DNA from: Escherichia coli 042
GTDB lineage: Bacteria > Pseudomonadota > Gammaproteobacteria > Enterobacterales > Enterobacteriaceae
DNA length: 64,000 nucleotides
Assembly: GCF_000027125.1 (NCBI RefSeq)
Contig: NC_017626.1
Direction: 5' to 3' (one strand)
Positions 60,001 to 64,000 of the stretch are shown piece by piece. The number at the start of each line of letters is the position of its first letter. Position 1 is the first letter of the stretch. The position numbers were made by a program.

Positions 60001-63000
60001 CGCATTTTTGCGACCGGCCCAGAAACGTACGCGCTCTGCTTCGTCCTGTGCCAGACGGACGTCAGTCGCACCCGCGTTCAACAAGATGTCGTTAACCCGC
60101 TCGCAGTCTTCCTGTACGTCAGACTCCACGCCGTCCAGCTCGCATAACAAAATCGCTTCGGCGTCGACGGGATAACCGGCATGTATAAAATCTTCCGCTG
60201 CGCGGATCGACAGGTTATCCATCATCTCCAGCCCGCCGGGGATAATGCCATTGGCGATGATGTCACCAACCGCAAGTCCGGCTTTTTCTACCGAGTCAAA
60301 GCTGGCTAACAGAACCCGCGCCACGGGCGGCTTCGGCAGCAGTTTTACCGTCACTTCGGTGGTCACGCCGAGCATACCTTCCGATCCGGTGAACAGCGCC
60401 AGCAGGTCAAAACCAGGCGAATCCAGCGCATCCGATCCCAGCGTCAGCGCCTCGCCGTCCAGCGTTTGCACTTCAATTTTCAGCAGGTTATGTACGGTCA
60501 GACCATATTTCAGGCAGTGAACGCCACCAGCATTTTCCGCCACGTTGCCGCCAATCGAACAGGCGATTTGTGAGGAAGGATCCGGCGCGTAATAGAGATT
60601 ATGCGGCGCAACGGCCTGGGAGATCGCCAGGTTACGCACGCCCGGCTGCACGCGCGCGCGGCGACCAACGGGGTTAATGTCGAGGATCTCTTTAAAGCGC
60701 GCCATCACCAACAACACACCTTTTTCCAGCGGCAGCGCGCCACCAGAAAGCCCGGTGCCTGCGCCACGGGTCACCACCGGCACACGCAGGCGGTGACAAA
60801 CAGCCAGAATCGCCGTCACCTGTTCCATCTGCTTTGGCAAAACAACCAGTAATGGACGCGTGCGATACGCGCTCAACCCGTCACACTCGTAAGGAATGAT
60901 CTCCTCATCGGTATGCAGGATCTCAAGTCCAGGGACATGCTCACGCAGTGCCATCAGTACCGATGTGCGGTCGACATCGGGTAAAGCGCCATCAAGACGC
61001 TCTTCGTACAAGATGCTCATGAGTAGGCTTCGCTTTGTTGTGTTGTGTGGCAGCTGATTTTTGCGCGCTGCTTCTGTGAACAGTTATTAAGCGGGCTTTT
61101 CGTTTTCGTCTATCTCTTTAGCTACCGGTCAGACCATTTTTTTTCCAGCTCTGTGACCTTGTCTTGGTTAACTTAATGTTAAATTGATGTAACATAATCA
61201 CTTACGTGATGTGCGTGTTTTGCGAGTTAAGAACAGAAAAATTGGTCCTACCTGTGCACGAGGTCCGGGAATGAAAGATGAACGTCGCCCTATTTGCGAA
61301 GTGGTTGCAGAGAGTATCGAACGGTTAATTATCGACGGCGTACTGAAGGTCGGTCAGCCGCTTCCCTCGGAACGTCGACTGTGTGAAAAGCTCGGCTTCT
61401 CACGCTCCGCACTGCGTGAAGGGCTGACCGTGCTGCGCGGGCGTGGGATTATTGAAACGGCGCAGGGGCGCGATTCTCGTGTCGCACGGCTTAATCGGGT
61501 GCAGGATACCAGCCCGCTAATTCATCTGTTCAGCACGCAGCCGCGAACGCTGTACGATCTGCTCGACGTTCGCGCATTGCTGGAGGGGGAATCGGCAAGG
61601 CTTGCGGCAACGCTGGGAACCCAGGCTGATTTTGTTGTGATAACCCGCTGTTATGAAAAAATGCTCGCCGCCAGTGAGAACAACAAAGAGATTTCGCTGA
61701 TCGAACATGCGCAGTTGGATCACGCTTTCCATCTCGCCATTTGTCAGGCTTCTCACAATCAGGTGTTGGTGTTTACGCTGCAATCATTGACCGATCTGAT
61801 GTTTAATTCAGTGTTTGCCAGCGTAAATAATCTCTACCATCGACCACAGCAAAAAAAGCAGATCGATCGCCAGCATGCGCGGATCTACAACGCGGTGTTG
61901 CAGCGGCTGCCGCACGTCGCCCAGCGCGCAGCACGCGATCATGTGCGGACCGTGAAAAAGAATCTCCACGATATCGAGCTGGAAGGCCACCATTTGATTC
62001 GCTCGGCGGTGCCGCTGGAGATGAAGCAGGGGTGACTGCCATCAAATCTGCTTTTCATACAATCGGTAACGCTTGTACGGCTCTGCCCCAATGCGTTCCA
62101 GCATGTTATTCATGCCTGTATTGGTTTCGAGGATCCATGACATCTCCAGCGCATCGATCTTCCGGCGGGCAAACGGATCGCGTAAGGCTTCAATCAATAA
62201 CAGCGCAATCACCGGGCCGATGCGGCTGAACTGATACTCGTCCCGCACGCCCATCAGCGGCACTCGCGCAGTTCGCACACCGCTGACTTTCAAACGCCAC
62301 AGCAATTTTGCCCAGCCGAAGGGAAAGAGCGATCCGTTCAGATCGGCAATCGCCTCGTTGATGTTTGGCAAGCCGACAATAAACGCGCAGGGTGCAGAAT
62401 CAATCTCAGCGATGTAGATCATATCGTCCGGCACCAGATATTTAAGTTGATCGCCCATGCTCGCGAATTCATGTTCGGTAAACGGCACAAATCCCCAGTT
62501 GTGCTGCCAGCCAGAATTGAAAATCTCACGCAGGATCTGCATCTCTTCGGCAAACCGCTGGCGATTGATGCAGCGAATGGTCACCTTCTTACGCACCTGA
62601 TCCATCAGTTTTTTTAGCGCCGGAGAGAAAGTGAGACCGGTTCGCTGCATCCACCACGCCAGTAAATCAATGCCTTTGTGATAACCCAATTGTTCAATAT
62701 GCGCGGCATACCACGGTTTACCGTGCGGCATCATCGCACAGGGTGGTGTATCGAAACCTTCAATCAGTAATCCGCTTTCCTGATTGATATTCAGGCTGAA
62801 AGGACCGCTGATCTTACTTGCACCTTGTGACTTCAACCACGCTTCCGCTGCGCCAAACAACGCGGCAAAAACCTGCGGATCATCAATGGCGTCAATCATG
62901 CCGAAATGACCGGTATCTTTGCCGTAACGCTCGCGGTGCAAGGTATCGATTTGCGCGGTAATACGCCCAACTATCTGCCCCGCTTTTTTTGCCACCCACG

Positions 63001-64000
63001 CCTGCCAGATGATATGGTCCGTCCCCGGATTTTTCGCAGACAAATGCTCGTTGCGTTCAATGAATAAAGGGGGTATCCAGTTTGGATCGTCGGGATAAAG
63101 TGATGACGGAAAAGCGATAAATGCCTTAAGGTCATTTTTATTAATTACTTTTTCAATTTTAATCATCAGCAGATCGCATTCCATAGTTCTGTGGGTAACA
63201 AATAATTAACGGTGACAAACAGGTTGCAACAGCAACGAACGGCACCTTAATAATCAACCCAATGAATACAAACGACGAATAAATAGTATTTATTAATGAT
63301 TACGATAAGGTCAGAGACTACACAGAAGCGCCACAATGCCTTTTGTCGATTTAAGGCGACCGGACAAGGCTTCTTCTTAATACATTCATAAATTAAATAT
63401 CATTCACAATAAAAACAAAAAACTCAAACTCATTATTTAAATCAATGTTCATTTTCACACTGATGAAAATACTATCTCATTTATCTTTTATGCCTATATA
63501 ATCCACCGCATTATTGTCATTTTATTTTTGATATCCAATTTTTTCGTGGTGTATATGTCTAATAAAATCTTTACGCATTCCCTACCTATGCGCTATGCCG
63601 ATTTTCCAACGCTGGTTGATGCTTTGGACTACGCCGCTCTGAGTAGCGCCGGAATGAATTTTTATGACAGACGTTGCCAACTTGAAGATCAACTGGAATA
63701 TCAGACGTTAAAAGCGCGTGCCGAAGCTGGTGCGAAGCGGTTGTTATCGCTGAACCTGAAAAAAGGCGATCGCGTGGCACTGATTGCCGAAACAAGTAGC
63801 GAGTTCGTAGAGGCTTTTTTTGCCTGCCAGTATGCCGGCTTAGTCGCCGTCCCGTTGGCGATTCCAATGGGCGTTGGTCAGCGGGATTCCTGGAGCGCCA
63901 AATTGCAGGGTTTACTGGCAAGTTGCCAGCCCGCAGCCATTATCACTGGTGATGAGTGGTTGCCACTGGTCAATGCCGCGACGCATGACAACCCCGAATT

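What the first reader, a model, noticed from the sequence alone, without database searches (positions are those of the whole stretch)
62042..63184. yghO appears intact here
The ORF is a continuous 380 aa. My recollection is that the K-12 copy is annotated as a pseudogene, so this allele may represent the functional ancestral form.
Basis: partly seen in the sequence, partly recalled or inferred. Interest (0 to 1): 0.2.

Follow-up and report, generated by a model that had tools for sequence, protein, structure and literature searches.

The report
Intact yghO, a putative ceramide-synthase gene
The window carries the ordinary, undamaged form of the E. coli gene yghO, which about three quarters of sequenced strains share and which lab strain K-12 lost the start of through an IS5 insertion element; it most likely makes the fatty-acid-adding enzyme of a little-studied bacterial sphingolipid pathway, all of which has been published in outline.

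Summary
Window 62042..63184 (minus strand) is an uninterrupted 380-codon ORF, yghO, convergent with glcC and divergent from a fatty acyl-AMP ligase gene.

MG1655 homology stops 40 nt inside the ORF, at window 63144. There it meets an IS5 end, and about 8.4 kb of neighbouring DNA is missing. However, current K-12 records do not flag yghO as a pseudogene. They call a 378 or 390 aa CDS that starts inside IS5.

The intact arrangement is common: 4147 of 5426 complete genomes, against 353 with the K-12 junction. The gene is under strong purifying selection (dN/dS about 0.05). The real start is probably Met7, giving 374 aa.

YghO is not a DNA-binding regulator. A confident model (pLDDT 95.6) shows a tandem-GNAT N-acyltransferase. 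Across 45 fully flanked loci from other species, its homologues lie within 10 kb of serine palmitoyltransferase in 41, and of the matching ACP, ACP synthetase and reductase in 40-41.

Published work already names the E. coli B protein (378/380 identical) as the orthologue of the Caulobacter ceramide N-acyltransferase CC_1154/bCerS, and reports intact yghO in another K-12 strain. The finding is therefore already known and of low interest.

The parts
62042..63184 (-). yghO ORF as called (380 aa from the first ATG), stop codon included
   Evidence: ORF list; PGAP annotates the same span as 'protein YghO' in other strains; 378/380 identical to WP_001300526.1
62042..63166 (-). Probable true yghO CDS (374 aa from Met7), a tandem-GNAT N-acyltransferase
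   Evidence: orthologues of 9 genera start at Met7 and are 374 aa; TAAGG..ATG context in most other genera, no upstream in-frame ATG in the 45 nt shown; AF2 pLDDT 95.6; tandem-GNAT structural matches
63141..63144 (.). TTAA at which the K-12 IS5LO end abuts yghO. K-12 homology ends at 63144, so everything from 63145 onward is absent from MG1655
   Evidence: K-12-type hits end at query positions equal to window 63144; base-level junction with the IS5 inverted repeat GGAAGGTGCGAACAAG
63145..63184 (-). The 40 nt of native 5' coding sequence (codons 1-13 plus 1 nt) that K-12 lacks and replaces with IS5-derived codons
63185..63554 (.). AT-rich (31.9% GC) divergent intergenic region between yghO and the acyl-AMP ligase operon. 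It presumably holds both promoters and is absent from K-12
   Evidence: GC content; one weak sigma-70-like match on the minus strand, not above shuffled expectation; deleted in K-12
63555..64000 (+). 5' part of the fatty acyl-AMP ligase / acyl-ACP synthetase gene (AasR, ECD_02851 orthologue), cut by the window end. It is the first gene of aasR-reductase-acpR-spt
   Evidence: annotation in collinear strains; PMC9386255 for AasR activity of the E. coli B protein
61271..62035 (+). glcC (glycolate regulator), convergent with yghO. The two stop codons are 6 bp apart. It is a neighbour and not part of the system
   Evidence: (glcC/glcD co-occur with yghO homologues only in Escherichia, 2 of 45 full-flank loci)

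Best explanation
The ORF is the intact, ancestral allele of E. coli yghO.

What the protein is (inferred): a soluble, roughly 374-aa enzyme built from two GNAT domains in tandem. It is most likely the N-acyltransferase ('bacterial ceramide synthase', bCerS/Aca type) of a five-gene dihydroceramide pathway. The other four genes lie immediately and divergently next to it.

Proposed pathway:
1. AasR (the fatty acyl-AMP ligase whose start is at window 63555) loads a fatty acid onto the dedicated carrier protein AcpR.
2. Spt condenses acyl-AcpR with serine to give 3-ketosphinganine.
3. YghO transfers a second acyl chain from an acyl thioester onto the amino group of that long-chain base.
4. The epimerase/dehydratase-family reductase reduces the 3-keto group. 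The order of steps 3 and 4 is disputed in the literature.
5. The adjacent LptF/LptG paralogues plausibly export the lipid.

What is shown here: the intact ORF; the K-12 5' truncation and IS5 fusion with an 8.4-kb deletion; the tandem-GNAT fold; conserved linkage to spt, acpR, aasR and the reductase across phyla; and purifying selection.

What is taken from the literature: activity of E. coli B AasR, AcpR and Spt; the requirement of Caulobacter CC_1154 for ceramide; and 44% identity between CC_1154 and the E. coli B protein.

What remains inferred: the enzymatic activity of YghO itself, its substrates, and whether and when E. coli expresses the pathway.
For: Structure of the locus:
- ORF intact.
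- K-12 breakpoint at window 63144, joined to the IS5LO inverted repeat.
- Non-matching IS5 flanks and a deletion of about 8.4 kb (L002 13246..~21633) covering aasR, the reductase gene, acpR, spt, lptG/lptF paralogues, a ytfJ-like gene, a hypothetical gene and the 3' end of yghQ.
- The intact configuration is in 4147 of 5426 complete genomes and the K-12 junction in 353.
- Other Escherichia and other genera have the intact form with the same neighbours, so it is ancestral.

Selection:
- dN/dS is 0.048 against E. whittamii and 0.069 against a divergent E. coli.
- All family-invariant residues are retained. The two private substitutions (D183G, T242S) fall in variable columns.

Fold:
- AF2 model with pLDDT 95.6 and pTM 0.92.
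- The best PDB matches are tandem GNATs: glucosamine N-acetyltransferase 5kf1, clavulanate tandem GNAT 2wpw, MAB_4324 7q3a, MshD 1ozp/2c27, FemX and Eis, with E down to 3e-15.

Genomic context:
- Among 45 species loci with full 10-kb flanks, Spt is present in 41, AasR in 41, the reductase in 40, AcpR in 40 and LptF/G paralogues in 30-31. The glcC/glcD controls are present in 2.
- The pattern holds outside Enterobacterales: 24-25 of 29 loci.
- Alphaproteobacterial members sit among FA hydroxylase, DAGK-type kinase, LptF/G, AMP-binding, epimerase and Spt-like genes.
- Natural fusions join the YghO-like domain to a fatty-acid hydroxylase, an AMP-binding enzyme and a glycosyltransferase.
- One source names a member 'Hypothetical protein associated with Serine palmitoyltransferase'.

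Literature:
- PMC9386255 proposes ECD_02850 of BL21(DE3) as the N-acyltransferase. It reports 44% identity, 98% coverage and E 1e-107 to CC_1154, and ceramide-like spots when SPT, AcpR and AasR are expressed in BL21(DE3).
- ECD_02850 is yghO by gene order in E. coli B.
Against: - No enzymatic or genetic test of E. coli YghO exists in the literature I could search.
- I could not retrieve the Caulobacter sequence, so the YghO-CC_1154 homology is cited and was not recomputed.
- Pfam and NCBIfam give no hit for this protein itself. GNAT models match only some homologues, and weakly.
- I know of no report of sphingolipids in E. coli lipid analyses. This rests on my own knowledge and was not checked here.
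- The acyl donor (acyl-CoA or acyl-ACP) and acceptor (3-ketosphinganine or sphinganine) are unresolved even in Caulobacter.
- 4 of 45 full-flank loci lack Spt nearby. Nitrosomonas keeps the homologue next to lptF/G but away from spt.
Confidence: 0.75

Rival explanations
1. YghO is a DNA-binding transcriptional regulator, as the product name in NC_000913.3/EcoCyc says and as some papers repeat ('biofilm-associated transcriptional regulator').
For: The only support is annotation: b2981 is named 'putative DNA-binding transcriptional regulator YghO', some Serratia and Pluralibacter entries are named 'DNA-binding protein', and the wording is repeated in a bioRxiv paper and in PMC3045373.
Against: No DNA-binding or helix-turn-helix family is detected. 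The whole 374-residue chain is modelled with high confidence as two GNAT domains, which leaves no room for a DNA-binding domain. Most sources name the homologues N-acetyltransferase. The conserved neighbours are lipid-biosynthesis genes.
Confidence: 0.02
2. YghO is a GNAT acyl/acetyltransferase with a substrate unrelated to sphingolipids, for example a protein-lysine, aminosugar or other small-molecule N-acetyltransferase. Its linkage to spt would then reflect some other shared role.
For: The closest solved structures acetylate aminosugars, mycothiol precursors or aminoglycosides. YghO was included as a candidate GNAT in a lysine-acetyltransferase screen (PMC6199490). No direct assay of its substrate exists.
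Against: Linkage to spt, acpR, aasR and the reductase is seen in 40-41 of 45 loci spanning Proteobacteria, Nitrospirota, Desulfobacterota and Gemmatimonadota. Fusions are to lipid enzymes. The Caulobacter orthologue is genetically required for ceramide. Structural identity to the acetyltransferases is only 9-16%. The screen used the K-12 (IS5-chimeric) clone, and from my memory of that paper YghO was not among the four new acetyltransferases it reported; this was not checked here.
Confidence: 0.1
3. The allele is intact but the pathway is a silent, decaying relic in E. coli. It would then be 'functional' only in the sense of having an open reading frame, with no product made in nature.
For: The divergent promoter region is AT-rich, 31.9% GC, which is typical of silenced DNA; this is inference. 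The locus is repeatedly hit by IS elements: IS5 in K-12, IS1 in H1827/12 and in an ST131 isolate, and IS5 within acpR in NCM3722. About 16% of genomes give no match to the region.
Against: dN/dS of about 0.05 over dS 0.24-0.34 within Escherichia indicates continuing selection on the protein. The whole cluster is retained in about 76% of complete genomes and in many other enterobacterial genera. E. coli B AasR, AcpR and Spt are active when expressed.
Confidence: 0.13

Closest known systems
Caulobacter crescentus CC_1154 / CCNA_01212 (bCerS, 'Aca'), the bacterial ceramide synthase / N-acyltransferase
   Same: Published 44% identity over 98% of the length to the E. coli B YghO (PMC9386255 Table S2), which is 378/380 identical to the window protein. 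Both are annotated as GNAT-type soluble proteins of about 375-390 aa. Both are linked to spt, acpR, aasR, the reductase gene and LptF/G paralogues.
   Different: In E. coli the five genes form one compact divergent unit, whereas in Caulobacter the acyltransferase lies about 8 genes away from spt. E. coli YghO has no experimental characterisation. The E. coli island lacks the ceramide-phosphoglycerate modification genes seen in alphaproteobacterial clusters (no homologues found in L002 by annotation). I did not recompute the alignment because the Caulobacter sequence could not be fetched.
E. coli K-12 MG1655 yghO (b2981)
   Same: 364/371 identical over residues 10-380, with the same 3' end and the same convergent arrangement with glcC.
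   Different: K-12 lacks the native first 13 codons (or 7, counted from Met7), the promoter region and the whole adjacent operon. Its annotated start codons lie inside IS5, giving a chimeric N-terminus: MMNPVLWLQMTNMISYQGLVRTFL (reference annotation) or MISYQGLVRTFL (PGAP) in place of MECDLLMIKIEKVI. It is annotated as a CDS, not a pseudogene, in the copies held here.
Tandem-GNAT N-acyltransferases of known structure (MshD mycothiol synthase 1ozp/2c27; glucosamine N-acetyltransferase 5kf1; clavulanate-pathway tandem GNAT 2wpw; MAB_4324 7q3a)
   Same: The same two-GNAT-domain single-chain architecture. Foldseek E is 1e-11 to 3e-15, with TM about 0.53-0.63 on the query.
   Different: Only 10-13% sequence identity. 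These enzymes transfer acetyl groups to sugars or thiol precursors, whereas YghO is inferred to transfer a long acyl chain to a lipid amine. YghO is about 50-80 residues longer.
Eukaryotic ceramide synthases (Lag1/CerS, TLC-domain membrane proteins)
   Same: The same inferred chemical step: N-acylation of a sphingoid base.
   Different: Unrelated fold. The eukaryotic enzymes are polytopic membrane TLC-domain proteins, whereas YghO is a soluble tandem GNAT. The bacterial and eukaryotic enzymes are regarded as convergent (Stankeviciute et al. 2022, cited in PMC11087976).

Membership tests
bCerS / Aca family (bacterial ceramide N-acyltransferase, CC_1154 type) | Full-length sequence homology to the experimentally defined member CC_1154 | not testable with these tools
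   The Caulobacter sequence could not be retrieved. The published BLAST gives CC_1154 against ECD_02850 at 44% identity, 98% coverage and E 1e-107. ECD_02850 is yghO by gene order, and that protein is 378/380 identical to the window's.
bCerS / Aca family (bacterial ceramide N-acyltransferase, CC_1154 type) | Genomic association with spt, the dedicated ACP, the acyl-ACP synthetase and the reductase | tested here: met
   Of 45 full-flank loci: Spt 41, AasR 41, reductase 40, AcpR 40, against 2 for the glcC/glcD controls. The window itself shows the AasR start 370 bp upstream on the opposite strand.
bCerS / Aca family (bacterial ceramide N-acyltransferase, CC_1154 type) | Soluble GNAT-type fold, not a TLC/Lag1 membrane protein | tested here: met
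   AF2 pLDDT 95.6. The top PDB matches are tandem GNATs.
bCerS / Aca family (bacterial ceramide N-acyltransferase, CC_1154 type) | Catalyses N-acylation of the long-chain base and is required for ceramide formation | not testable with these tools
   Needs an enzyme assay or a genetic test. The only hint is ceramide-like TLC spots in BL21(DE3) expressing SPT, AcpR and AasR (PMC9386255).
GNAT (GCN5-related N-acetyltransferase) superfamily | GNAT fold | tested here: met
   Two GNAT domains in the model. 232 PDB chains match at E <= 0.001; the 50 best listed are almost all GNAT-type acyltransferases.
GNAT (GCN5-related N-acetyltransferase) superfamily | Match to a Pfam GNAT sequence model (e.g. 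PF00583) | tested here: not met
   No Pfam or NCBIfam hit for the window protein at E <= 0.1. Distant family members do match PF00583: P0209 at E 1.8e-8 on the C-terminal half, P0121 at 2e-15.
DNA-binding transcriptional regulators (the K-12 product name) | A recognisable DNA-binding domain | tested here: not met
   No such family in Pfam or NCBIfam. The whole chain is accounted for by two GNAT domains.
   NC_000913.3 b2981 and PGAP QQ24_RS07465 are both plain CDS with protein accessions and no pseudo flag.
   A 5' truncation of 40 nt with fusion to the IS5 inverted repeat, and loss of the upstream region.

The most novel reading that the evidence does not exclude
Most natural E. coli, about three quarters of complete genomes, retain a complete and selectively maintained dihydroceramide pathway with YghO as its ceramide synthase, and make a sphingolipid under some condition not yet identified. 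On this reading, decades of E. coli lipid biochemistry missed it because K-12 MG1655 deleted the pathway through IS5. The cluster and the candidate role are already in print. What remains open is the in vivo product, its regulation and its role in E. coli.
Probability: 0.4. Interest if true: 0.55.

Novelty: already known. Interest (0 to 1): 0.15.

Why it matters
For the finding as written, little is at stake. It is a correct but routine observation that a non-K-12 strain carries the undamaged form of a gene that IS5 clipped in MG1655, which was reported in 2011.

Two practical points follow:
- The K-12 product name 'DNA-binding transcriptional regulator' is almost certainly wrong and is still being repeated in papers. 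The K-12 CDS models are IS5 chimeras, so K-12 clones such as ASKA JW5848 are poor reagents for studying this protein.
- The gene belongs to a putative ceramide pathway that K-12 lacks. E. coli B or wild isolates, not K-12, are therefore the right background for asking whether E. coli makes sphingolipids.

Tried and rejected
- Pfam and NCBIfam scans of the protein gave no hits.
- A sequence search of the PDB gave only chance-level hits.
- The diverse 57-sequence alignment was too divergent for the search for related loci, so a 12-sequence alignment was used instead.
- Three attempts to obtain a named Caulobacter CC_1154 sequence for a direct alignment all failed. Two cluster look-ups of representatives at 38-47% identity and a profile search with alphaproteobacterial members returned Kiloniellales, Pelagibius, Dongiaceae and Aestuariivirga instead.
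- The primary bCerS paper (Stankeviciute 2022) is not held.
- The promoter/terminator scan of 61900-63700 found nothing above shuffled expectation, so no promoter is claimed.
- I considered whether the window's two private substitutions (D183G, T242S) might inactivate the protein and rejected this, because both columns vary across the family.
- I considered the 'transcriptional regulator' reading and rejected it on fold and context.
- I did not pursue why about 867 genomes lack any match to the region.
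Full report
**1. The observation.**

The ORF listing returns an ORF at window 62042..63184 on the minus strand. It lies tail-to-tail with glcC (61271..62035, plus strand), with the two stop codons 6 bp apart. 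It lies head-to-head with a gene that starts at 63555 and runs off the window.

Megablast against 5426 complete E. coli genomes finds the region in 4552 of them. PGAP annotates the same span as 'yghO: protein YghO', flanked by glcC and a 'fatty acyl-AMP ligase'.

**2.

K-12 records match the query only up to window 63144, which is 40 nt short of the ATG at 63184.

The base-level alignment and the MG1655 reference sequence show what lies upstream of that point. On the yghO sense strand, K-12 reads ...CATGATCTCATATCAGGGACTTGTTCGCACCTTCC|TTAATAAAAATGACC. The part before the bar is the terminal inverted repeat of the element annotated in NC_000913.3 as IS5LO.

The other end of that IS5 abuts a yghQ gene that lacks its 3' end. 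The 4-bp flanks are TTAA on one side and CTAA on the other, so they are not a target-site duplication.

Relative to strain 2014C-3075 (L002), K-12 lacks L002 13246..~21633, about 8.4 kb. This stretch holds:
- the 5' 40 nt of yghO and the 370-bp intergenic region;
- the fatty acyl-AMP ligase gene;
- an NAD-dependent epimerase/dehydratase-family gene;
- an acyl carrier protein gene;
- spt (serine palmitoyltransferase);
- lptG and lptF paralogues;
- a ytfJ-family gene and a hypothetical gene;
- the 3' 285 nt of yghQ.

K-12 therefore carries an IS5-associated deletion, not a simple insertion.

Neither K-12 annotation held here flags yghO as a pseudogene. NC_000913.3 gives b2981 as a 1173-nt CDS (390 aa, YP_009518815.1, 'putative DNA-binding transcriptional regulator YghO') whose first 70 nt lie inside IS5LO. 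PGAP gives 378 aa starting at a later ATG, also inside IS5. The proteins are 364/371 identical to the window's over residues 10-380. Upstream of Asn15 they are IS5-encoded.

It may have been true of older releases, and I recall that too, but I could not check it.

The point is not new. Lyons et al. [quoted passage not shown]

**3. How common is each state, and which is ancestral?**

| State | Genomes (of 5426) | Calls |
|---|---|---|
| At least 80% of a query spanning the yghO 5' end and the ligase start | 4147 (76%) | 3; 4144 with a longer query, |
| K-12-type yghO-IS5 junction | 353 (6.5%) | 29 |
| No match to the region | about 867-874 | 3, 63 |

Other independent IS events hit the same locus. 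In strain H1827/12, IS1 replaces everything from the ligase gene to yghS while yghO stays intact. In one ST131 isolate, IS1 abuts the ligase gene and glc-yghO is absent.

Escherichia whittamii and many other enterobacterial genera have the intact gene with the same neighbours. The intact form is therefore ancestral and the K-12 form is derived.

**4. Is the gene under selection?**

Nei-Gojobori estimates of the window allele against other alleles are shown below.

| Compared with | dN/dS | dS |
|---|---|---|
| E. whittamii | 0.048 | 0.24 |
| A divergent E. coli | 0.069 | 0.34 |
| E. coli B allele | 0.078 | 0.029 |

The window protein differs from the common E. coli protein WP_001300526.1 at two residues, D183G and T242S. 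Both columns vary freely across a 57-member family alignment, and every invariant residue of the family is retained.

**5. The start codon.**

Homologues in Serratia, Pluralibacter, Pantoea, Erwinia, Citrobacter, Mangrovibacter, Kosakonia and Pseudocitrobacter are almost all 374 aa and align from the window ORF's Met7.

In most of these genera the start is preceded by a conserved TAAGG(C/T)TGTTT motif (clear in 6 of the 9 whose upstream sequence was printed). None has an in-frame ATG in the 45 nt shown. Escherichia alone has an extra in-frame ATG 18 nt upstream.

Met7 (window 63166) is therefore the probable start, giving 374 aa. On that numbering K-12 lacks the first 7 native codons.

**6. 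What the protein is.**

Pfam, NCBIfam and a PDB sequence search give nothing for this protein. An exhaustive HMMER search finds a large family: 6458 representative clusters at E <= 1e-3 and 1120 at E <= 1e-30. Most listed members are full-length, at 31-50% identity.

With a 57-sequence alignment, AlphaFold2 gives a very confident model (pLDDT 95.6, pTM 0.92). Foldseek against the PDB returns single-chain tandem-GNAT enzymes at the top:
- glucosamine N-acetyltransferase 5kf1 (E 3e-15);
- the clavulanate-pathway tandem GNAT 2wpw;
- MAB_4324 7q3a;
- mycothiol synthase MshD 1ozp/2c27;
- then VipF, FemX and Eis.

Family conservation is concentrated in the C-terminal half: NWGFVP, LPFGWxKLLWRLK, RVxLMGVR, SWILEDN and YKTYRxYEK. 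By analogy with MshD, where the C-terminal domain is catalytic (my knowledge of that family), this suggests that the C-terminal half is the active one.

No part of the chain is left over for a DNA-binding domain, so the K-12 product name is not supported.

**7. What it works with.**

I fetched 80 loci, from 79 different species, that encode a homologue. I then searched them with the proteins of the E. coli island. The counts below are loci in which each protein is encoded within 10 kb of the homologue.

| Protein | All full-flank loci (n = 45) | Outside Enterobacterales, <72% identity (n = 29) |
|---|---|---|
| Spt | 41 | 25 |
| Ligase (AasR) | 41 | 25 |
| Reductase | 40 | 24 |
| ACP | 40 | 24 |
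| LptF/LptG paralogues | 30-31 | 19 |
| glcC or glcD (controls) | 2 | not more than 1 |

The most common layout outside E. coli is the E. coli one, with the homologue divergent from aasR-reductase-acp-spt. It recurs in Pseudomonas and in Nitrospira, Desulfobacterota and other proteobacterial metagenome-assembled genomes (Gemmatimonadota loci have it without the reductase).

Alphaproteobacterial members (Kiloniellales, Pelagibius) sit among a fatty-acid hydroxylase, nucleotidyltransferases, a metallophosphatase, a DAGK-type kinase, a CDP-alcohol phosphatidyltransferase, two LptF/LptG genes, an ABC exporter, AMP-binding and epimerase genes, and Spt-like aminotransferases. This is the kind of gene set described for the Caulobacter CC_1152-CC_1168 sphingolipid region (PMC11324152).

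Natural fusions join the YghO-like domain to a fatty-acid hydroxylase, an AMP-binding enzyme and a glycosyltransferase. One database source even names a member 'Hypothetical protein associated with Serine palmitoyltransferase'.

**8. Literature.**

Padilla-Gomez et al. 2022 (PMC9386255) worked with E. coli BL21(DE3). They showed that ECD_02853 (AcpR), ECD_02851 (AasR) and ECD_02854 (SPT) are active. [quoted passage not shown] They noted that the five dihydroceramide genes are clustered only in Caulobacter and E. coli BL21. They list ECD_02850 as the orthologue of CC_1154 at 44% identity, 98% coverage and E 1e-107.

In an E. coli B genome the gene next to the ligase gene is yghO, with protein WP_001300526.1. 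ECD_02850 is therefore yghO, and it is 378/380 identical to the window protein.

[quoted passage not shown] Whether acylation precedes or follows reduction is debated (PMC11087976; bioRxiv 2024.02.16.580706).

I found no paper that tests E. coli YghO itself. K-12's IS5-chimeric clone was included in a lysine-acetyltransferase screen (PMC6199490).

**9. Verdict.**

The ORF is real and intact, and it is the ancestral form. K-12's copy is truncated at the 5' end and fused to IS5, although it is currently annotated as a CDS.

The protein is best explained as the tandem-GNAT N-acyltransferase (bCerS/Aca type) of a dihydroceramide pathway that K-12 MG1655 has deleted. Fold, context and selection were tested here. 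Activity is inferred.

Both the intactness outside MG1655 and the proposed function are already published, so the finding is 'already known' and of low interest. What remains open is whether E. coli actually makes a sphingolipid, and when.

Noticed in passing
window 63555-64000 (+), continuing beyond the window end: Start of the fatty acyl-AMP ligase / acyl-ACP synthetase gene (AasR). In collinear strains it heads an aasR-reductase-acpR-spt operon, followed by lptG/lptF paralogues, a ytfJ-like gene, a hypothetical gene and yghQ/R/S. This is a putative sphingolipid island that MG1655 lacks.
   Followed up: partly
window 62036-62041 (between the glcC stop and the yghO stop): glcC and yghO are convergent with only 6 bp between their stop codons and no terminator-like hairpin found there. 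ExcludonFinder (PMC12288877) lists glcC-yghO among pairs with overlapping transcription.
   Followed up: no
L088 (E. coli H1827/12) 7386-8866; L087 (ST131 isolate) 8288-8985: Independent IS1 events at the same locus. One removes everything from the ligase gene to yghS but leaves yghO intact. The other abuts the ligase gene, with glc-yghO absent and pap remnants in their place. Together with K-12's IS5 and the IS5 reported in acpR of NCM3722, this makes the locus an IS-mediated decay hot-spot.
   Followed up: partly
E. coli genome collection, queries window 61900-63600 and 60800-64000: About 867-874 of 5426 complete genomes give no megablast match at all to a query that includes glcD, glcC, yghO and the ligase start. 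I did not determine which lineages these are or what replaces the region.
   Followed up: no
Protein hits P0271, P0310, P0333, P0371 (alphaproteobacteria); P0108, P0046 (Serratia, Pluralibacter): Family members are named inconsistently by sources: 'dATP pyrophosphohydrolase', 'DNA-binding protein', 'N-acetyltransferase' and 'Hypothetical protein associated with Serine palmitoyltransferase'. The first two names look like propagated misannotations, given the tandem-GNAT fold.
   Followed up: partly
L008 and L021 (Shimwellia pseudoproteus, two contigs): This species has two yghO homologues. One (83% identity) has the full neighbouring cluster. The other (about 74%) has none of the cluster genes within 10 kb.
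   Followed up: no
Proteins P0121 (784 aa), P0133 (630 aa), P0192 (940 aa), P0239 (450 aa): Natural fusions of the YghO-like module: a 784-aa protein with a second match to the query in its N-terminal half, a fatty-acid hydroxylase + YghO protein, a YghO + AMP-binding enzyme protein, and a YghO + group-1 glycosyltransferase protein. These are Rosetta-stone hints of lipid-tailoring partners.
   Followed up: partly
L042, L046, L056, L063, L067 (Nitrosomonas spp.): In Nitrosomonas the homologue keeps LptF/LptG paralogues immediately downstream but has no spt, acp, ligase or reductase gene within 10 kb. Linkage to the Lpt paralogues can therefore persist without linkage to spt.
   Followed up: no
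whole window; window 60800-64000: The best identity of this 3.2-kb stretch to any of 5426 complete E. coli genomes is 99.0%, and only 4 genomes reach 99%. The window's strain is therefore not closely represented in that collection. The overall window GC is 47.8%, below the roughly 50-57% of the genes measured here.
   Followed up: no
L002 24423-25115 (strain 2014C-3075): yghT is flagged as a pseudogene (internal stop) in this otherwise intact-island strain, whereas it is intact in K-12.
   Followed up: no
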